From a plasmid, in sequence record NZ_CP143948.1: DNA of 64,000 nucleotides. One strand, written 5' to 3'. The position numbers and the translations under genes are program-made. Numbering within the stretch: position 1 is the first letter of the stretch; the number at the start of each line of letters is the position of its first letter. Under the pieces are notes generated by a model. That model was not told where the DNA came from. It saw nothing but the letters and a program-made list of their open reading frames with translations, and did no database searches. Shown in pieces: positions 44,950-51,372 of this stretch.

Positions 44950-45205
44950 TGTGTTCCTCCTGAGTTTATCAGGTCTTTCGACCAGTCCAAACTATAACAT
45001 AATAATTTCTTTAATGTTCATCTCTTCTATAGTTCAAAACCATAAGGTGAATGGAGACCTTTGTATGAATAATATGCCATTCAGACCGCTATGTCAATTA
45101 CATATTCTACCCCATCGCTTCGTTTCCTACCCCATTTTGCACCTTTTGTGGCAGAAAACATATTAGGTACAGTTTAGAATACATTTATTATTCAAATCAT
45201 TTAAT

Positions 45206-45730
45206 TTACATTTCTCTTTTAGCTTCTACCTTTGTTGCATATTTCCACGTCTTTCCGCAATCTTTTGAATAGATACTTTCCCAACTAAATGTATCCTTCT
45301 CAATATTTTTGAAATTCCATTGCCATATAGTTGTATCATTCGCATCTTTATTAATCCCTGTTTGTATAATATCATTCTCCAATTCTTCGGCGATTAACCT
45401 ATCAACACTCCATTTGGAAACGTACACTATATTCCACTTTTTTGAATTATCTATCATTGGAACTCGTATTGTTGTTCCATAATCTCCGTATAAAGTATCT
45501 TCCTCTGTCCATTCTCCTCTTTTGGGACAAATGAAGACATCTTGAATTCCATACCCATCCATGACATATGAAAAAAGCCACTCACCTTCTTTTGTATCTT
45601 CAATCTTCCCCTCTTCATCATATGTAGTCATTGTAAACGACCAATTTCCAACAAATCTACTATACAATGATAAATCTGTGTTATTATTCGCATTATTGCT
45701 TCCTAATGCTTCTAAAAATTCATTTTTCAT
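45206..45730 (-). CDS. Hypothetical protein (AT-rich, Trp-rich, 174 aa)
   Basis: ORF with AT-rich codon usage; no motif recognised. Confidence 0.4.
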   Translation of the reverse strand: MKNEFLEALGSNNANNNTDLSLYSRFVGNWSFTMTTYDEEGKIEDTKEGEWLFSYVMDGYGIQDVFICPKRGEWTEEDTLYGDYGTTIRVPMIDNSKKWNIVYVSKWSVDRLIAEELENDIIQTGINKDANDTTIWQWNFKNIEKDTFSWESIYSKDCGKTWKYATKVEAKREM

Positions 45731-45763
45731 TAGCGTACACTCTCCTCCCGATAAACATGTTGC

Positions 45764-46285
45764 TTATTTATCATTTGTAGTAATTGAATAAACAACCAAA
45801 TCCCTATATTCCCCTGTGTTTTTATCAATTCTTCTTTTTCTTAAAACCCCATCCTTAATAAAACCTACCTTTTCAAGCAGATTAAGCGAAGGTTTATTAT
45901 CTATATTACATTTTGCCTCAATGAGATACAGTCTATCTTTTGACAAGTATTCTGAAATCATCTTTTTTACAGCTTCAGTGCCATAACCTTTACCATGCCA
46001 CTTTTCACCAATAACATAACCAATTTCACCAATCCTTAATTCTTGATATGGTATATCAAAAGATATATATCCTATACATGCACCACTTTCTTTTTCAACA
46101 ATTACCCATGCATTCGTATTTTTCACCATAGCATTTACAAAAGAATTCATCTGATCCATATTCATTGGATATCCCATTATAAAATCACCCAAATGCTCAT
46201 CTGTCCCCCATCCCTCGAAGCATATTGAAGCATCTTCATTCACAAAATGGCGGATGTATAATCGCTCTGTTTCTATTTTCATCAT
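45764..46285 (-). CDS. GNAT family N-acetyltransferase (RimJ/RimL-like)
   Basis: ERLYIRHF...WHGKGYGTEA acetyl-CoA binding motif. Confidence 0.8.
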   Translation of the reverse strand: MMKIETERLYIRHFVNEDASICFEGWGTDEHLGDFIMGYPMNMDQMNSFVNAMVKNTNAWVIVEKESGACIGYISFDIPYQELRIGEIGYVIGEKWHGKGYGTEAVKKMISEYLSKDRLYLIEAKCNIDNKPSLNLLEKVGFIKDGVLRKRRIDKNTGEYRDLVVYSITTNDK

Positions 46286-46429
46286 AAAAATCCTTTTCCA
46301 TCTACATTATGACTTGGCACCACTACATCAATTAATCCTACTATAACATACTTTTAAACTGTAAAAAAGGGTTTCCGAGAAATCTCGGAAACCCTTGAAT
46401 TTACTAGATATTTACACTACTAACAAGTA

Positions 46430-46484
46430 ATTACTCGATAACTGTAGCAACACGTCCAGAACCTACTGTACGTCCACCCTCACG
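46430..46484 (-). repeat. 55-bp copy of the tuf 3' end (last 17 codons plus stop), direct repeat of 50184-50238 with one synonymous mismatch
   Basis: ATTACTCGATAACTGTAGCAACACGTCCAGA(A/T)CCTACTGTACGTCCACCCTCACG is present at both sites. The relic copy forms a 22-codon mini-ORF (46431-46499) with its own GAGGT RBS. Confidence 0.85.
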
Positions 46485-46704
46485 ATACTTTAATATCATT
46501 TTACCTCATATTTTTTATGGTTTTCTCTCCAAAATACAGTGAAAAACGACTGATTTGTACTATTTATTTTTATTTGCCTGATTTCTTGGCACCGTTTTGG
46601 CACCGGAAGCCTCAGTCAAAAAGCTTCTCTTCTGCTGTTTATACTCTTCTCTATCAGCTTTAATTTATAGCCAAAAAGCAGCCAGTTTTTCATATAAATA
46701 ATTT

Positions 46705-47985
46705 CTAATAACTTTTATCGCCTTTCTTCAAAGGAGAAAACGTAATCTTATTTGCCAAAAGAAAAAGAATTATTATTACAATACCAAATCCCACAAAAAG
46801 TGAACTTGTATCAACAACAGTAACTTTGTATATAATACTAATCACAAAAGATACCACTGGCGCGCATGCGTATGTAAGTGAAAATCGAATTGCAGAAACA
46901 CGTCCTATATATTCTTTAGTAACTTCTTTTACAAATTTCACTTGTACATAAGTAATCATTAATCCCAATGCTGCACCAATTATTATCGAACCGATTAGCA
47001 ACAGTAATTTTTGAGTTATAGGATTTGCAATATATTTTGAAACAAATGCAATAAAAACATAGTATACACCTAAAACAATTCCACAAAATGTAACAAGTGT
47101 ATTATTTTTTTTCTCCTCTTTCATTTTTGCAAAAGTCAATGATCCCAAAATAGTACCAATAGTTACGCTTACACTTAGTAATGAAACAATTTTGGCATCT
47201 CCACTAAACATTTCTCTTGCAATCGGGGCGAGCAGTGCATCAAATGGAACCACTGCTGAATTAATTAGAATACATAAAAAACATAGTTTTAATAGCTTCT
47301 TATGGTCAAATACATAACTAAATCCATCTCTAAGCGAAATTAAATATTCTCTGCCAATTATTCGGTTTGTCTTCTTTTCTTCTTGAACAGAAAATTCTAT
47401 TTTTACTATAAGCAACGCTGATATTAAAAATATCAAAGCATCTATCGCTAAAGAAATACCTATTCCAAATGAACTAATCACTATGCCTGACAAGCCAGTT
47501 CCAACTAATACTGCTATTTTGGTACAAGACACATTGACACTTACACCTTTATCATAATGTTCATTAGGAAGTACATGCTGAATAACTGCTACCCCTGCTG
47601 GCATATGAAATGCTTCTATTAATGAAATGGATATTGTCATAAAAACCAATATTAATGGTGAAAGCATGTTTTGTGTATATACATATAATATATACAAAAC
47701 TAACAGAACTCGAGCTATATCTGAAAGTACTAACACTTTCTTTTTATTCATATTCTCGACTAATGGACCTATAAATGGTTGAATAATTACAGAAGTAGCT
47801 TGATTAATACCAAAAATAATCGCAGACCACCCTGCACTATTTGTAAGTAAATATACCAACCATGTAAAAAGTATTGTATCTAATGAATCACCACAGCGGT
47901 TAATAATATTAGAAGTCAGCAGATAAACATAATTGTGGTTATGATATAACTCATGTTTATTCATATTTGTTACCTCTCTAATCAT
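46705..47985 (-). CDS. MFS transporter (putative exporter of the adjacent RiPP-like product)
   Basis: 426 aa, about 12 TM; 4-nt ATGA overlap with the upstream radical-SAM gene. Confidence 0.7.
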   Translation of the reverse strand: MIREVTNMNKHELYHNHNYVYLLTSNIINRCGDSLDTILFTWLVYLLTNSAGWSAIIFGINQATSVIIQPFIGPLVENMNKKKVLVLSDIARVLLVLYILYVYTQNMLSPLILVFMTISISLIEAFHMPAGVAVIQHVLPNEHYDKGVSVNVSCTKIAVLVGTGLSGIVISSFGIGISLAIDALIFLISALLIVKIEFSVQEEKKTNRIIGREYLISLRDGFSYVFDHKKLLKLCFLCILINSAVVPFDALLAPIAREMFSGDAKIVSLLSVSVTIGTILGSLTFAKMKEEKKNNTLVTFCGIVLGVYYVFIAFVSKYIANPITQKLLLLIGSIIIGAALGLMITYVQVKFVKEVTKEYIGRVSAIRFSLTYACAPVVSFVISIIYKVTVVDTSSLFVGFGIVIIILFLLANKITFSPLKKGDKSY

Positions 47986-49136
47986 AATTTAGATTGTTTA
48001 ATTTCGCAAGCTATCTTATAAAGATCCTGATGTTTTAAAGCCGCTGCTTTTTCTATAACATTATCAATTTCTGATATATCATTAAGTGATTCCAAATATT
48101 TTTTCCATTTTTTCATTTCAACATTATATGCACAGTATCTATTTTCACTTTCAAATGAGCCGTTAATGCAATAACGACTATTACTACATCCTCCTAAGCA
48201 TCGTTCTGTATAACGACATTCTCTGCAAAATCCTTTTAACTTACTACTATCAAAATTTCTATTCCACTTAAAAGAGTCCGGACTTTCCCAAATCGACTTT
48301 AAAGATTTTTCACGAATATTTCCCGCTACTAATGTTTTATCTCTAATAGAAGTACAAGCAACAATATCTCCATTATGCAGAATACCAATTACATGCTTTC
48401 CTGCTCCACAACCTGTCCAAGACCAATTATCATTAAGAAAATTCTCATTTACTTTTATATCTTTATTGCTATAATAACCTATGCAATCTGCCAAAACAAT
48501 TAACAACTTACCTCCAATTTTATTATATGCAAAATCAATAATAGAAAGAATATCTTGAGGTTCTATAAGCCATTCTGGGCGTTTTGCAAAATTCCCCATT
48601 GGTAATGCAATCTGTAACTGCCAACTATTAACTCCCAAATCACTTAATAATTGATATAGTTCTTCCAATTCACATATATTTTCTTTATTTATTGAAGTTA
48701 TTACTGATGTCGAAATATTATTTTTTCTTAATTCTTTCAATGCTTTAATACTTTTATTGAATGATCCCGATCTCCGTATAAAATCGTGAGTTTTTTCAAG
48801 ACCATCAATACTTAAACAGACACTTCTAATTCCTGATGTTATCGCATTATGAATAAAGTTTTCATCAATCAACCAACCATTTGTAATAATACTTGTTATT
48901 ATGCCATTATCTACTAATCTTTTCGCAATAATATGCCAGTCACTACGTGTCGTAGGTTCCCCTCCAGATAATGTAATAACTTTTAATCCCAAATCTTTTA
49001 ATTGGTCACACACCTCAAGAGCTTCTGATGTATTCAACTCATCGGGTAGCGCTTCTGCACAACTTGAACCGCAATGTTTACAACGCATATTACAACCCAT
49101 TGTTATTTCCCATACAGCTGTAGTTAATTTATTCAT
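47982..49136 (-). CDS. Radical SAM / SPASM-domain peptide maturase
   Basis: CNMRCKHCG (C.3C.2C) radical-SAM cluster at residues 15-22 with no N-terminal RRE, and a C-terminal Cys-rich SPASM region (CRECRYTERCLGGCSNSRYC...CAYN). Confidence 0.85.
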   Translation of the reverse strand: MNKLTTAVWEITMGCNMRCKHCGSSCAEALPDELNTSEALEVCDQLKDLGLKVITLSGGEPTTRSDWHIIAKRLVDNGIITSIITNGWLIDENFIHNAITSGIRSVCLSIDGLEKTHDFIRRSGSFNKSIKALKELRKNNISTSVITSINKENICELEELYQLLSDLGVNSWQLQIALPMGNFAKRPEWLIEPQDILSIIDFAYNKIGGKLLIVLADCIGYYSNKDIKVNENFLNDNWSWTGCGAGKHVIGILHNGDIVACTSIRDKTLVAGNIREKSLKSIWESPDSFKWNRNFDSSKLKGFCRECRYTERCLGGCSNSRYCINGSFESENRYCAYNVEMKKWKKYLESLNDISEIDNVIEKAAALKHQDLYKIACEIKQSKL

Positions 49137-49217
49137 ATATTCTCTCCTATAATCCTTTTTAAATAAAAAAGACCTACTCTATATTTCTTTTTACATAGAG
49201 CAAGTCTTTTCTACAAA

Positions 49218-49325
49218 CTACATTCTCACACCTGTTCCGTACATAACTGGTCCAAATAAGTTCTTAGAGGTTTTTAATTCAGAAATCTTTACAAACTCCA
49301 AGCTCAATTCTTCAAGATTAAACAT
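49218..49325 (-). CDS. RiPP precursor peptide candidate (35 aa: MFNLEELSLEFVKISELKTSKNLFGPVMYGTGVRM)
   Basis: ATG at 49325 is preceded by GGGAGGTG; amphipathic leader-like N-terminus. It lies 81 nt upstream of the rSAM gene on the same strand. The track ORF (68 aa) reads through from an unlikely upstream start. Confidence 0.5.
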   Translation of the reverse strand: MFNLEELSLEFVKISELKTSKNLFGPVMYGTGVRM

Positions 49326-49482
49326 TTTTATCCACCTCCCGTTTATTGAATTTATCTTAAGAATACATCTCTTATTTTCAAATGTCAAGTTATTTTCATT
49401 ATTTTTCCCAAATTTCGAGTTCAAATTCTCGTTTTATTTGTAACATATTTTCCATTTTCTACGCATACATCAGATCTCTTAA

Positions 49483-49926
49483 CCACTTATAAATGTCCGT
49501 AAAATTGCAAAAGCAACTGGAATCAGTGCTACAACCTTATATTCAATCATTCAAAAAGATTCCAATATTCGATTTGATTTTGCTTTAAGACTTGCAAACG
49601 AATTGCAAATTGATGTGAATGAGATATGTTCTGCCAGTCCATTTTCTGACACAATTAAGGAAGAAGAGATTTATCCTACACTTCCAGACGGTTTGAACGG
49701 AGCCTTAGACGCAAGTCGTGTAAAGACTTACTTAAAAAATTCTATGTATCCGTTGATGTATCTTTTTGGCAAAAATAGTATGCCTGATGTAGATAATCTA
49801 CTTACATCATTCTATCAGCTTGATGATGAAGCCAGACAGGAAGTTGTAGAAACAATCCGTCTGAAACTGCAATATCATCGAGATCCGAAACGTGCTGAAC
49901 AGATCAAGCAGATTAAAGGTTGGTAA
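49483..49926 (+). pseudogene. XRE-family HTH regulator, apparently 5'-truncated (no in-frame start upstream of helix 2)
   Basis: In-frame translation from 49483 gives NVRKIAKATGISATTLYSIIQKDSNIRFDFALRLANELQIDVNEI (HTH helices 2-5). A TAA sits at 49480 and all three frames are closed just upstream; the first possible start is TTG 49603, downstream of the HTH. Confidence 0.45.
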
Positions 49927-49931
49927 AAAAT

Positions 49932-49972
49932 CACTCCTGTGAATGGCAAACATTCGCAGGAGTTTCTTTTTG
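49932..49972 (+). terminator. Rho-independent terminator after the XRE gene
   Basis: ACTCCTG...CAGGAGT stem followed by TTCTTTTT. Confidence 0.5.
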
Positions 49973-50092
49973 GGCACCGTTTTGGCACCACTGGTCTTAT
50001 TTTTCAATTTTAAATTTATCTGTATTTTATCTTGCTGATAAATATTTCGCTATTTCTCTACTTATAATTTTTCAAATCATTCTCTCTTTAAG

Positions 50093-50127
50093 ATACAGAA
50101 AAACCCGTAGAACCGAAGTTCTACGGG
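50093..50127 (-). terminator. tuf terminator
   Basis: Minus-sense CCCGUAGAAC-UUCG-GUUCUACGGG hairpin followed by UUUUUCU, about 60 nt below the tuf stop. Confidence 0.7.
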
Positions 50128-50184
50128 TATCTTACGTTTAGACACAACGTTATCTTACGATAACAAATCCATATTAAGATTGTA

Positions 50185-51372
50185 TTACTCGATAACTGTA
50201 GCAACACGTCCAGATCCTACTGTACGTCCACCCTCACGGATAGCGAATGTAAGACCCTGCTCCATAGCTACTGGATGGATGAGCTCGATTGTCATCTCTA
50301 CGTTATCACCAGGCATGCACATCTCTGTTCCTGCTGGAAGCTCGCAAACACCTGTTACGTCTGTTGTTCTGAAGTAGAACTGTGGACGATAGTTGTTGAA
50401 GAATGGAGTATGACGTCCACCCTCGTCCTTTGTAAGAACGTAAACCTGAGCCGTAAACTTATGGTGACATGTTACTGTACCAGGCTTAGCAAGAACCTGT
50501 CCACGAACGATCTGGTCACGGTTAATACCACGGAGAAGTGCTCCGATGTTATCACCAGCCTGAGCCTCGTCTAACTGCTTACGGAACATCTCGATTCCAG
50601 TAACAACAGTCTTCTGAACGTCCTCTTTAACACCAAGGATCTCTAACTCGTCGTTGAGGTGAAGTGTACCACGCTCTACTCTACCAGTTGCAACAGTACC
50701 ACGACCTGTGATTGTGAATACGTCCTCTACTGGCATAAGGAATGGCTTATCTGTATCACGCTGTGGATCTGGGATATAAGAATCAACAGTATCCATAAGC
50801 TCCATGATCTTGTCTCCCCAAGGTCCCATTGGATCCTCAAGAGCCTTAAGAGCTGATCCCTGGATGATTGGGCAATCATTGAATCCGTACTCCTCAAGCT
50901 GCTCTGTAACTTCCATCTCTACGAGCTCGATAAGCTCTGGGTCGTCAACCATATCACACTTGTTAAGGAATACGATGATGTAAGGAACACCTACCTGACG
51001 AGAAAGGAGGATGTGCTCCTTTGTCTGAGCCATAACACCATCAGTAGCAGCAACAACAAGGATAGCACCATCCATCTGAGCTGCACCAGTGATCATGTTC
51101 TTTACGTAGTCAGCATGTCCAGGACAGTCAACGTGTGCGTAATGTCTCTTTTCTGTCTCATACTCAACGTGAGCTGTAGAAATTGTGATTCCACGCTCTC
51201 TCTCCTCTGGAGCCTTATCAATGTTAGCGAAATCTGTAGCTGTGTTACCAGCGACACGAGCTGCTAATACTGCTGTAATAGCTGCTGTTAAAGTTGTTTT
51301 ACCATGATCTACGTGACCGATGGTACCAATATTACAATGTGGTTTTGTTCTTTCAAATTTAGCCTTTGCCAT
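50185..51372 (-). CDS. tuf: Elongation factor Tu
   Basis: 395 aa; [18 protein letters not shown] and NKCD GTPase motifs. Confidence 0.97.

What the first reader, a model, noticed from the sequence alone, without database searches (positions are those of the whole stretch)
46705..49926. RiPP-like locus: 35-aa Cys-free precursor, RRE-less radical-SAM/SPASM enzyme, MFS exporter, divergent XRE regulator
The gene order is precursor (MFNLEELSLEFVKISELKTSKN-LFGPVMYGTGVRM, strong GGGAGGTG RBS), then rSAM-SPASM maturase, then a translationally coupled MFS transporter, with a divergently transcribed XRE HTH gene. This is the architecture of streptide-like RaS-RiPP clusters controlled by an Rgg/XRE regulator. 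The putative core has no Cys, so sactipeptide, ranthipeptide and SCIFF chemistry are excluded. It also has no Lys/Trp pair, so a streptide-type K-W crosslink is excluded. It does contain aromatic-X-X triplets (MYG/YGT), which are compatible with a three-residue cyclophane-type (triceptide-like) C-C crosslink. The radical-SAM motif begins at residue 15, so the enzyme has no N-terminal RRE domain. Together with the unusual core sequence, this points to a possibly undescribed modification class. An 18-codon ORF (MENMLQIKREFELEIWEK, 49455-49399) sits upstream of the precursor but has no RBS, so I give it little weight.
Basis: partly seen in the sequence, partly recalled or inferred. Interest (0 to 1): 0.7.

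Follow-up and report, generated by a model that had tools for sequence, protein, structure and literature searches.

The report
Spliceotide-like peptide cassette on mobile island
A real three-gene cassette in a gut Lachnospiraceae genome (35-residue peptide, radical-SAM enzyme, exporter) most likely makes a backbone-spliced "ketoamide" peptide of the known spliceotide class, and it sits on the decayed remnant of a mobile element inserted at the end of the EF-Tu gene.

Summary
A 35-aa ORF, a 384-aa radical-SAM/SPASM gene and an MFS gene lie on the minus strand at the stated coordinates.

The short ORF is a genuine gene. Eight loci whose enzymes are only 58-63% identical all keep FGPVMYG, with 104 pairwise synonymous and 0 non-synonymous codon differences in that block.

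The interpretation needs correcting in three places:
[quoted passage not shown] The enzyme's best family hit is the PlpX family (TIGR04103), and it is 34% identical to PlpX. Its ~500-aa TPR-fused relatives sit next to YG-repeat, GG-leader or NHLP-leader peptides. A known class fits better than a triceptide or an undescribed one.
- **Regulator.** The "divergent XRE regulator" is a 5'-truncated remnant.
- **Context.** The 3.8-kb region is a deletion derivative of an integrative mobilizable element that targets the 3' end of tuf. It is flanked by 55-nt repeats and shared at 99% nucleotide identity across at least three genera.

Verdict: new member of a known kind. The chemistry is inferred, not shown.

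The parts
50184..50238 (-). attL: last 55 nt of tuf (EF-Tu, 51372..50185), supplied by the element. Left border of the islet.
   Evidence: 55-nt direct repeat, 98% identical to 46430-46484. The same 55 nt flank the element in L014, L099 and L134.
50103..50128 (-). Intrinsic terminator after tuf, carried by the element.
   Evidence: Terminator-like hairpin plus T-run. It is part of the 99%-identical shared segment.
49967..49989 (.). 23-nt repeat (GGCACC-TTTT-GGCACC core), left copy. Candidate arm-type integrase site (inference).
   Evidence: Direct repeat D4, 91% identical to 46582-46604. The integrase of intact elements has an Arm-DNA-binding domain.
49507..49926 (+). 5'-truncated XRE/HTH gene, a remnant of the mobile element's regulator.
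   Evidence: HTH_3 is matched only from profile position 16, and a TAA lies just upstream. The full-length 166-aa gene in L016 matches HTH_3 positions 1-54.
49491..49496 (.). Deletion junction. 5.1 kb is missing here relative to intact elements: XRE N-terminus, tyrosine integrase, AAA_25 replication-type ATPase, DUF5348 and Mob_Pre relaxase.
   Evidence: blastn of the window against L016. ORFs and Pfam hits of L016 513-5639. The same junction spacing is seen in L134.
49360..49388 (-). Sigma-70-like promoter (TTGACA, 17 nt, TATTCT) about 35 nt upstream of the precursor ATG.
   Evidence: Best-scoring promoter-like site in the region, 10 of 12 matches. This is a consensus match only.
49333..49340 (-). 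Shine-Dalgarno sequence GGGAGGTG of the precursor gene.
   Evidence: Read directly from the sequence.
49218..49325 (-). Precursor peptide gene (35 aa). The leader is roughly residues 1-23. The conserved core FGPVMYGTGVRM spans 49256-49221. The predicted splice site Met-Tyr-Gly spans 49244-49236.
   Evidence: FGPVMYG is invariant in 8 divergent loci, with synonymous changes only.
49163..49214 (-). Strong hairpin followed by a U-run between the precursor and rSAM genes. Likely a partial terminator that gives excess precursor transcript.
   Evidence: Free energy -28.8 kcal/mol, z = -7.7 against shuffles.
47982..49136 (-). Radical-SAM/SPASM maturase (384 aa), predicted binary splicease. It has no RRE and no TPR domain.
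   Evidence: Pfam Radical_SAM + SPASM. Best NCBIfam hit is TIGR04103, 235 bits against a cut-off of 725. It is 34% identical to PlpX over 327 aa, E = 9e-66. The Cys motifs are invariant.
46705..47985 (-). MFS transporter (DHA3/MFS_3 type), 4-nt overlap with the rSAM stop codon. Predicted exporter, possibly also immunity.
   Evidence: TIGR00900 at 167 bits, plus MFS_1 and MFS_3. An MFS gene follows the rSAM gene in every short-form locus.
46582..46604 (.). 23-nt repeat, right copy.
   Evidence: repeat D4.
46430..46484 (-). attR: displaced original 3' end of tuf. Right border of the islet.
   Evidence: repeat D1. Identity shared with L014, L015 and L016 stops at 46426-46430.
46367..46396 (-). 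Perfect 14-bp hairpin. Presumed native tuf terminator, now separated from tuf by the islet.
   Evidence: Inverted repeat I13.

Best explanation
The locus is a minimal, two-component ('binary') spliceotide-type RiPP cassette.

Shown:
- The 35-aa precursor has its own promoter-like site, a strong Shine-Dalgarno sequence and a hairpin/U-run after its stop codon.
- An rSAM/SPASM gene and an MFS gene follow it in every homologous locus.

Inferred mechanism:
1. The N-terminal ~23 residues act as a helical leader that docks on the RRE-less enzyme.
2. The enzyme uses a 5'-deoxyadenosyl radical to excise a tyramine equivalent (C8H9NO, -135.06 Da) from Tyr29 of the invariant Met-Tyr-Gly. It rejoins the backbone as an alpha-keto-beta-methionine (ketoamide) residue, giving FGPV-(akbM)-GTGVRM.
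3. The MFS pump exports the product. No dedicated leader protease is encoded.
4. The ketoamide would act as a warhead against serine or cysteine proteases, as in characterised spliceotides.

Shown for the genomic context:
- The cassette is cargo of an integrative mobilizable element (XRE, tyrosine integrase, AAA_25 ATPase, MobV-type relaxase) that inserts into the last 55 nt of tuf.
- The window holds a 3.8-kb deletion derivative that lost the integration and mobilisation genes but kept both att repeats.
For: **Precursor**
- FGPVMYG is invariant in 8 loci with 58-63% identical enzymes. The block shows 104 pairwise synonymous and 0 non-synonymous codon differences.
- MYG is the native splice site of PlpA3 (AVAAMYGVV). 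MYG is spliced in RcsA and LYG in RasA, each with a -135.06 Da change.

**Enzyme**
- TIGR04103 is the top NCBIfam hit for the window enzyme and for relatives P0014, P0024 and P0049.
- PlpX itself, recovered next to PlpA3 in Pleurocapsa PCC 7319, scores 824 bits on TIGR04103.
- The window enzyme is 34% identical to PlpX across the rSAM core and SPASM domain, E = 9e-66. The best solved structures reach at most 61 bits.

**Wider family**
- Relatives at 43-57% identity, about 500 aa with C-terminal TPR, sit beside peptides with 2-7 YG motifs (PLYGI, KYGV, RPMYGIS repeats), double-glycine leaders and C39-ABC exporters. Others sit beside NHLP-leader peptides carrying xAYGV.
- A neighbouring small ORF has 3 or more YG motifs in 16 of 80 loci, against 2 of 80 in far flanks.
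- This is the published splicease signature: YG-rich precursors next to PlpX-like rSAM-SPASM enzymes in 189 genera, with 27 confirmed pairs (PMC10849128).
- Published binary systems lack the Y/RRE protein and use a leader helix instead (PMC11414181).

**Mobile element**
- Searches support this.
- 28 of 80 integrase loci read fusA-tuf-att-XRE-int.
- L099 is a complete element carrying the cassette.
- L134 is the same deletion derivative next to an intact element.
Against: - No chemistry was measured.
- The enzyme is well below the TIGR04103 cut-off (235 against 725 bits). It scores almost as well on other SPASM families: TIGR03913 at 225 and AhbD at 179, with AhbD reaching 202 for P0014. Enzyme similarity alone is therefore weak evidence.
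- A few family members neighbour Tyr-Ala rather than Tyr-Gly peptides, such as AYAV in C. polysaccharolyticum and MMYAV in L061 and L076. Published spliceases are described as acting on XYG.
- The leader resembles neither Nif11 nor NHLP.
- I could not read Scott et al., Chem 2022, to see whether this clade was tested.
- No leader protease is present, so the mature product is undefined.
Confidence: 0.6

Rival explanations
1. Triceptide-type three-residue cyclophane. The rSAM enzyme would link the Tyr29 ring to the beta-carbon of residue 31 (Y-G-T), giving -2 Da.
For: - The residue after Y-G is beta-branched (T, I or V) in most family precursors.
- An aromatic-X-X motif is formally present.
Against: - Residue 31 varies (T or I) while M-Y-G is invariant.
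- No triceptide maturase family appears among the 25 best NCBIfam hits, all of which score at least 65 bits. The top hit is the splicease family.
- Known 3-CyFE enzymes carry an N-terminal RRE (my own knowledge). This enzyme starts its CxxxCxxC motif at residue 15.
- Strict conservation of Gly after Tyr is the hallmark of splice sites.
Confidence: 0.1
2. A different, so far undescribed Tyr-directed radical reaction by a sister clade of the spliceases. Examples would be side-chain cleavage, a Tyr crosslink to Val/Pro, or epimerisation.
For: - The enzyme is only 34% identical to PlpX and fails the TIGR04103 cut-off.
- Tyr-Ala variants exist in the family.
- I could find no experimental work on this clade.
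Against: The combination of a YG-rich substrate and a PlpX-like rSAM-SPASM enzyme has been validated as predictive of splicing in 27 pairs across phyla (PMC10849128).
Confidence: 0.17
3. The window copy is an inactive relic. The cassette is stranded on a degraded mobile element and is no longer expressed or functional.
For: - The element lost its integrase, replication and relaxase genes and half of XRE.
- Related copies carry an in-frame ~126-bp deletion that removes the conserved WQLQxALPMGN region of the rSAM enzyme (L005, L006, L015; P0004 cluster, 464 members).
- Other copies are rSAM fragments (P0009, P0010) or have a frameshifted precursor (P0209).
Against: - In the window all three ORFs are full length and every invariant Cys and motif is present.
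- The full-length allele is the commonest (P0001 cluster, 2132 members).
- The promoter-like site, Shine-Dalgarno sequence and hairpin are intact.
Confidence: 0.1
4. A streptide-like quorum-sensing RaS-RiPP operon controlled by the divergent XRE/Rgg-type regulator.
For: An HTH ORF lies on the opposite strand upstream of the precursor.
Against: - The HTH gene is truncated at about codon 22.
- In intact elements it is separated from the precursor by 5 kb of integrase, replication and relaxase genes.
- It accompanies elements with unrelated cargo: 76 of 80 integrase loci lack the cassette.
- It is absent from the homologous cassettes elsewhere.
- It has no Rgg/TPR domain.
Confidence: 0.02

Closest known systems
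Type I spliceotide system PlpA/PlpX/PlpY of Pleurocapsa sp. PCC 7319 (Morinaka et al. 2018; TIGR04103)
   Same: - rSAM/SPASM enzyme homologous over the whole catalytic region (34% identity).
- The substrate core carries Met-Tyr-Gly, the very tripeptide spliced in PlpA3.
   Different: - No PlpY/RRE partner.
- No Nif11/NHLP leader; the leader here is about 23 aa.
- Single precursor, and an MFS exporter instead of a C39-ABC exporter.
- The enzyme is below the TIGR04103 cut-off.
- The host is an anaerobic gut Firmicute, and the cassette is mobile-element cargo.
Binary (type II and other Y-less) spliceotide systems, e.g. RhaX/RhaA (RasX/RasA) and RcsX/RcsA of Rheinheimera
   Same: - Two-component enzyme plus precursor with no Y protein.
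- MYG or LYG is the splice site.
- The products are protease-inhibiting ketoamides.
   Different: - I could not obtain those enzyme sequences for comparison.
- Those precursors have two Cys (a disulfide), longer leaders and GG-type processing.
Uncharacterised ~500-aa rSAM-SPASM-TPR enzymes of Clostridia, Syntrophomonas and Bacteroidales with YG-repeat, GG-leader or NHLP precursors (e.g. Pseudobacteroides cellulosolvens L011/L023)
   Same: - Nearest relatives, at 43-57% identity.
- Homologous leader motif (EEF..V.E.K).
- YG in the core.
   Different: - They carry a C-terminal TPR domain. The window enzyme keeps only the first ~45 residues of that extension.
- Their leaders are double-glycine type with C39-ABC exporters.
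- Most have multiple YG sites.
Triceptides (3-CyFE rSAM cyclophane peptides: Xye, Grr, Fxs families)
   Same: rSAM/SPASM maturase acting on an aromatic residue in a short motif.
   Different: - Different enzyme families with N-terminal RRE domains.
- The defining crosslink needs residue X3, which is not conserved here.
- Gly after Tyr is invariant here.
Integrative mobilizable elements (IMEs) and their deletion derivatives (CIMEs) of Firmicutes that integrate into the 3' ends of housekeeping genes
   Same: - Tyrosine integrase, MobV-type relaxase and replication-type ATPase.
- Direct repeats that restore the target gene's 3' end.
- Tandem accretion (L098, L101, L134).
- An att-flanked derivative that lacks the recombination module.
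   Different: - The target is tuf. I know of no description of this, but I did not search the literature for it.
- The cargo is a RiPP cassette.

Membership tests
Spliceotides (splicease RiPPs) | Maturase is an rSAM/SPASM enzyme homologous to PlpX. | tested here: met
   34% identity over 327 aa to PlpX, E = 9e-66. TIGR04103 is the best of 75 NCBIfam hits.
Spliceotides (splicease RiPPs) | Maturase passes the PlpX equivalog model (TIGR04103 cut-off 725 bits). | tested here: not met
   235 bits. PlpX itself scores 824 bits. The window enzyme is therefore a relative of type I spliceases, not a member.
Spliceotides (splicease RiPPs) | Conserved X-Tyr-Gly motif in the precursor core. | tested here: met
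   Met-Tyr-Gly is invariant in 8 divergent precursors, with synonymous changes only. YG-rich peptides lie next to relatives.
Spliceotides (splicease RiPPs) | [quoted passage not shown] | not testable with these tools
   Needs co-expression and HR-MS/MS.
Spliceotides (splicease RiPPs) | Y/RRE accessory protein (type I only) or a leader helix that replaces it (binary types). | tested here: inconclusive
   No Y-like ORF lies in the islet, which holds only three intact genes. A leader helix is plausible but was not modelled.
Spliceotides (splicease RiPPs) | Nif11 or NHLP leader (classical types). | tested here: not met
   No family hit for the 35-aa peptide. Precursors of Syntrophomonas relatives do carry an NHLP leader (TIGR03793, 61.9 bits).
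Triceptides (3-residue cyclophane RiPPs) | 3-CyFE-type rSAM enzyme with an N-terminal RRE. | tested here: not met
   The CxxxCxxC motif begins at residue 15. No triceptide maturase family is among the 25 best NCBIfam hits.
Triceptides (3-residue cyclophane RiPPs) | Conserved aromatic-X-X motif whose third residue supplies the crosslinked beta-carbon. | tested here: inconclusive
   Y-G-T/I is present, but residue 3 varies while Gly is invariant.
Streptide-like RaS-RiPPs under shp/rgg control | Lys-Trp (or other defined) crosslink partners in the core, plus an Rgg-type regulator. | tested here: not met
   The core has no Trp. The HTH gene is a truncated element regulator without an Rgg/TPR domain.
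Sactipeptides / ranthipeptides / SCIFF | Cys in the core as thioether donor. | tested here: not met
   The peptide has no Cys.
Integrative mobilizable element (IME) | Flanking direct repeats (att) at a specific target. | tested here: met
   55-nt repeats of the tuf 3' end. 28 of 80 related loci read fusA-tuf-att-XRE-int.
Integrative mobilizable element (IME) | Own integrase and relaxase. | tested here: not met
   Both are deleted in the window. They are present in L016 and L099. The window copy is therefore a CIME-like derivative.

The most novel reading that the evidence does not exclude
The short, TPR-less, MFS-coupled clade performs a Tyr-directed radical reaction other than tyramine excision. 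That would define a new minimal RiPP class now spreading among human-gut Lachnospiraceae on a tuf-targeting mobilizable element.
Probability: 0.15. Interest if true: 0.75.

Novelty: new member of a known kind. Interest (0 to 1): 0.45.

Why it matters
If the prediction holds, this is one of the smallest natural splicease systems: a 35-aa substrate, a 384-aa enzyme and no accessory protein.

- **Abundance.** It comes from an abundant human-gut lineage. The enzyme's 90% cluster has 2132 sequences, and the carrier element's integrase has 501 metagenome matches.
- **Native products.** Mature spliceotide products from native hosts had not been isolated as of a 2022 review (PMC9811515). A cultivable gut carrier, Gallintestinimicrobium propionicum or Blautia caecimuris, would make isolation testable.
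- **Biological role.** A secreted ketoamide protease inhibitor moving between gut genera on a mobile element would bear on microbe-microbe and microbe-host interactions.
- **Engineering.** A compact splicease could be useful for introducing beta-amino acids into proteins.
- **Targeting of tuf.** The use of the 3' end of tuf by an IME family with swappable cargo is of separate interest.

Tried and rejected
- **Precursor homologue search.** The tool refuses queries under 40 aa. A concatenated query found only near-identical copies, called as artificially extended ORFs. Divergent precursors had to be collected locus by locus.
- **Scott et al., Chem 2022.** This paper defines the splicease types and is not held. 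The supplements of two Piel-lab papers are not held either. I therefore could not check whether this clade has been assigned a type or tested.
- **Literature searches.** Searches for TIGR04103, for rSAM-SPASM-TPR, for ketoamide with gut, and for the peptide strings GPVMYG and VMYGTG returned nothing relevant.
- **PDB.** There is no close solved homologue. The best are SkfB at 61 bits and PqqE at 45 bits, so I did not pursue structure prediction or fold search. They would not discriminate between chemistries.
- **Rejected readings.**
  - The XRE gene as a RiPP regulator.
  - The 18-codon ORF as a gene.
  - Sactipeptide or streptide chemistry.
  - AhbD/NirJ-type cofactor chemistry, since a conserved peptide always accompanies the enzyme.
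- **Source genome.** The window is not from G. propionicum Sanger_16. That genome matches only the islet, at 99.3%. Its flanks are unrelated.


Full report
**What is there**

On the minus strand lie three genes:
- a 35-codon ORF (49325..49218, MFNLEELSLEFVKISELKTSKNLFGPVMYGTGVRM), preceded by GGGAGGTG;
- a 384-aa radical-SAM/SPASM gene (49136..47982; CxxxCxxC at residues 15-22; Pfam Radical_SAM 10-164 and SPASM 243-307);
- a 426-aa MFS gene (47985..46705), whose ATG overlaps the rSAM stop codon.

Further expression signals:
- A sigma-70-like site (TTGACA, 17 nt, TATTCT; 49388-49360) lies about 35 nt upstream of the short ORF.
- A very stable hairpin with a U-run follows the ORF's stop codon (-28.8 kcal/mol, z = -7.7). 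This is the usual arrangement for over-producing a precursor relative to its enzymes.

The region has 30% G+C, against 45-48% in the neighbouring tuf and fusA genes.

**The short ORF is a real gene**

The enzyme has close homologues at 80-99% identity and a second group at 58-63% identity and about 390 aa. I recovered the DNA around seven members of the second group. Their contexts are unrelated:
- between two PGA_cap genes near rplJ/rplL;
- next to a P-type ATPase;
- after an ABC importer;
- next to a PadR regulator.

Each locus has a 30-35-codon ORF just upstream of the enzyme and an MFS gene just downstream.

All the peptides read ...(E/D)(E/L)(L/F)V.(V/I/L).(E/D)LK.S...FGPVMYG(T/I)..R.. 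Across the eight sequences the FGPVMYG block shows 104 pairwise synonymous codon differences and no non-synonymous ones. Every degenerate codon position varies.

Among strains, indels shift its frame and fuse it to the precursor in automatic gene calls.

**What the enzyme is related to**

- No NCBIfam equivalog is reached.
- The best hit is TIGR04103, "nif11-class peptide radical SAM maturase 3", at 235 bits against a cut-off of 725.
- Next come TIGR03913 (225), TIGR04133 (185) and heme b synthase AhbD (179).

I retrieved the founding splicease to test the link. The published PlpA3 sequence (supplementary Table S3 of PMC10533398) led to its gene in Pleurocapsa sp. PCC 7319 and to the adjacent PlpX and PlpY genes.

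- PlpX scores 824 bits on TIGR04103, so that model is the PlpX family.
- The window enzyme is 34% identical to PlpX over 327 residues covering the rSAM core and the SPASM domain (E = 9e-66).
- The best solved structures are far more distant: SkfB at 61 bits, PqqE at 45 and SuiB at 35.

**What spliceases do (from the literature)**

- PlpX-type enzymes excise all of a Tyr residue except C1 (a tyramine equivalent, C8H9NO, -135.06 Da) within an X-Tyr-Gly motif.
- Native X residues include Met and Leu. PlpA3 is spliced at AVAAMYGVV, RcsA at MYG and RasA at LYG.
- Later work found YG-rich precursors beside PlpX-like rSAM-SPASM enzymes in 189 genera, with 27 validated enzyme-substrate pairs (summarised in PMC10849128).
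- Most of these systems are binary. They lack the Y/RRE protein, and a leader helix takes its place.
- The products tested are protease inhibitors.

**The wider family fits that signature**

A scan of one genome per species found 165 relatives. Beyond the short-form clade they are 43-57% identical. Most are about 500 aa because of a C-terminal TPR domain. They occur in Clostridia, Syntrophomonadaceae, Bacteroidales, Desulfoluna and others.

Their neighbouring small ORFs are strikingly rich in YG:
- five PLYGI repeats in Pseudobacteroides cellulosolvens;
- four RPMYGIS repeats in L071;
- KYGV/KYGI arrays in L051, L052, L055 and L083;
- single LYG peptides with a leader resembling the window's (LEEFIST...PLYGIPP in Tissierella, L020);
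- Bacteroidales peptides with GG leaders (...KGG-LLLYGVKPP).

A Syntrophomonas-type precursor that I scanned has a bona fide NHLP leader (TIGR03793, 61.9 bits). This precursor type carries a core of ...(C/L/V)AYGV....

A neighbouring small ORF has three or more YG motifs in 16 of 80 loci, against 2 of 80 in distant flanks of the same loci.

A minority have Tyr-Ala instead: C. polysaccharolyticum, L061 and L076.

The alignment shows that the window enzyme keeps all seven SPASM cysteines and about 45 residues of the extension that precedes the TPR repeats. It lacks the repeats themselves.

**Most likely mechanism**

1. The precursor is transcribed in excess.
2. Its roughly 23-residue acidic, amphipathic leader binds the RRE-less enzyme.
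3. The enzyme splices Met28-Tyr29-Gly30 into an alpha-keto-beta-methionine ketoamide.
4. The MFS pump exports the product, FGPV-(akbM)-GTGVRM with or without leader.
5. The ketoamide acts as a protease-inhibiting warhead.

The shown parts are the gene set, the conservation pattern, the homology and the family-wide YG association. The reaction, export, leader removal and target are all inferred.

I put this at 0.6. The main weaknesses are:
- the enzyme's scores against PlpX-type and AhbD-type models are not far apart;
- Tyr-Ala variants exist in the family;
- I could not read Scott et al. 2022.

It is disfavoured for three reasons:
- residue 31 varies while Gly is invariant;
- no triceptide maturase family is among the 25 best hits;
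- the enzyme has no RRE.

**The XRE gene and the genomic context**

The HTH match begins at profile position 16, directly after a stop codon. The cause became clear from the context.

- The last 55 nt of tuf (50184-50238) recur at 46430-46484 (98% identical).
- The 3.8 kb between and including these repeats is 99.3% identical to a segment of Gallintestinimicrobium propionicum (L014), whose flanks are unrelated.
- It is also 99.3% identical to Blautia caecimuris (L016), and is present in a Lachnobacterium-labelled MAG (L015).
- L016 has 5.1 kb more at window position 49491/49496. This extra DNA holds the missing XRE N-terminus (full gene 166 aa, HTH_3 positions 1-54), a tyrosine integrase with an arm-binding domain, an AAA_25 ATPase, DUF5348 and a Mob_Pre relaxase.

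A metagenome scan with the integrase gave 501 matches. Of the best 80:
- 28 show fusA-tuf-att-XRE-int-rep-mob in hosts whose tuf is only 80-87% identical to the window's;
- L099 is a complete 8.95-kb element with the RiPP cassette as cargo between two att copies;
- L134 is the same deletion derivative as the window, lying in tandem with an intact element;
- L098 and L101 are further tandem arrays;
- 76 carry other cargo.

The cassette is therefore cargo of a tuf-targeting integrative mobilizable element, and the window holds an att-flanked, integrase-less derivative. The XRE gene belongs to the element, not to the RiPP.

The 23-nt repeats near both ends (49967-49989 and 46582-46604) are candidate arm-type integrase sites. 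This is inference.

**Source organism**

The window is not from G. propionicum Sanger_16, since only the islet matches that genome. Metagenome contig L005 matches the window across fusA, tuf and the islet at 99%. The MAG L015 matches its right flank at 96%.

**State of the cassette**

In the window all three genes are intact, and the full-length enzyme allele is the commonest (P0001 cluster, 2132 sequences). Decay is visible elsewhere:
- an in-frame ~126-bp deletion that removes the conserved WQLQxALPMGN segment (L005, L006, L015; P0004 cluster, 464 sequences);
- enzyme fragments (P0009, P0010);
- one frameshifted precursor (P0209).

**Verdict**

The proposed novelty is not. The best reading is a new, unusually compact member of the known spliceotide class, carried on a degraded mobile element. 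It is worth an expression and MS experiment because of its prevalence in the human gut and its simplicity.

Noticed in passing
window 46430-50246; L014 4891-8707; L016; L099 8757-17710; L134: A family of ~9-kb integrative mobilizable elements (XRE, tyrosine integrase, AAA_25, DUF5348, MobV relaxase) inserts into the last 55 nt of tuf in many gut Lachnospiraceae. There are 501 integrase matches in metagenomes. Tandem arrays occur, and an att-flanked deletion derivative is shared at 99% identity by at least three genera.
   Followed up: yes
L130 14675-17365; L157 15809-16600: Most elements of this family carry other cargo instead of the RiPP cassette. L130 has a PadR regulator, a membrane protein and a 351-aa XRE-HTH protein with a long helical C-terminus. 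L157 has a 263-aa RlmN/Cfr-family radical-SAM methyltransferase fragment (TIGR00048, 212 bits, below cut-off).
   Followed up: partly
window ~48507-48632 (absent from L005, L006, L015): A common allele of the rSAM gene has an in-frame ~126-bp deletion bounded by a 19-nt repeat. It removes the conserved WQLQxALPMGN region (P0004 cluster, 464 sequences). That allele is probably inactive.
   Followed up: partly
L014 1-4890 and 8797-13152: In G. propionicum the islet, with both tuf-end repeats, has no tuf gene beside it. An esterase gene after cysS-rlmB-sigH lies on the left, and an endonuclease/exonuclease/phosphatase-like gene (by eye, not scanned) and an ABC transporter lie on the right. A secondary site, a rearrangement or a misassembly could explain this. 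It remains unexplained.
   Followed up: no
window 45167-46430: The stretch just beyond attR is a strain-variable spot, with G+C of 32-34%. The window has a GNAT acetyltransferase (45764-46285) and a 174-aa protein with no family hit (45206-45730). L005, of the same species, has 2.9 kb of other genes including a SnoaL-like protein. L015 has almost nothing there.
   Followed up: partly
L007 3894-4181 (-): A Nif11-leader RiPP precursor gene (TIGR03798, 54 bits) lies divergently next to one homologous cassette. Its core after the GG site has no Tyr-Gly, so its relation to the rSAM enzyme is unclear.
   Followed up: no
window 49399-49455 and P0181-P0208: Indel polymorphism in the A-rich promoter region makes gene callers emit 78-89-aa 'proteins'. 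These fuse non-coding sequence, including the -35 box and the Shine-Dalgarno sequence, to the 35-aa precursor. Databases therefore hold the precursor mainly in this artefactual form.
   Followed up: yes
L009 4680-7157 (C. polysaccharolyticum); L061; L076: Some TPR-type relatives neighbour peptides with Tyr-Ala (V(I/M/V)AYA(V/I), MMYAV) rather than Tyr-Gly. This suggests either relaxed site specificity or different chemistry in part of the family.
   Followed up: no
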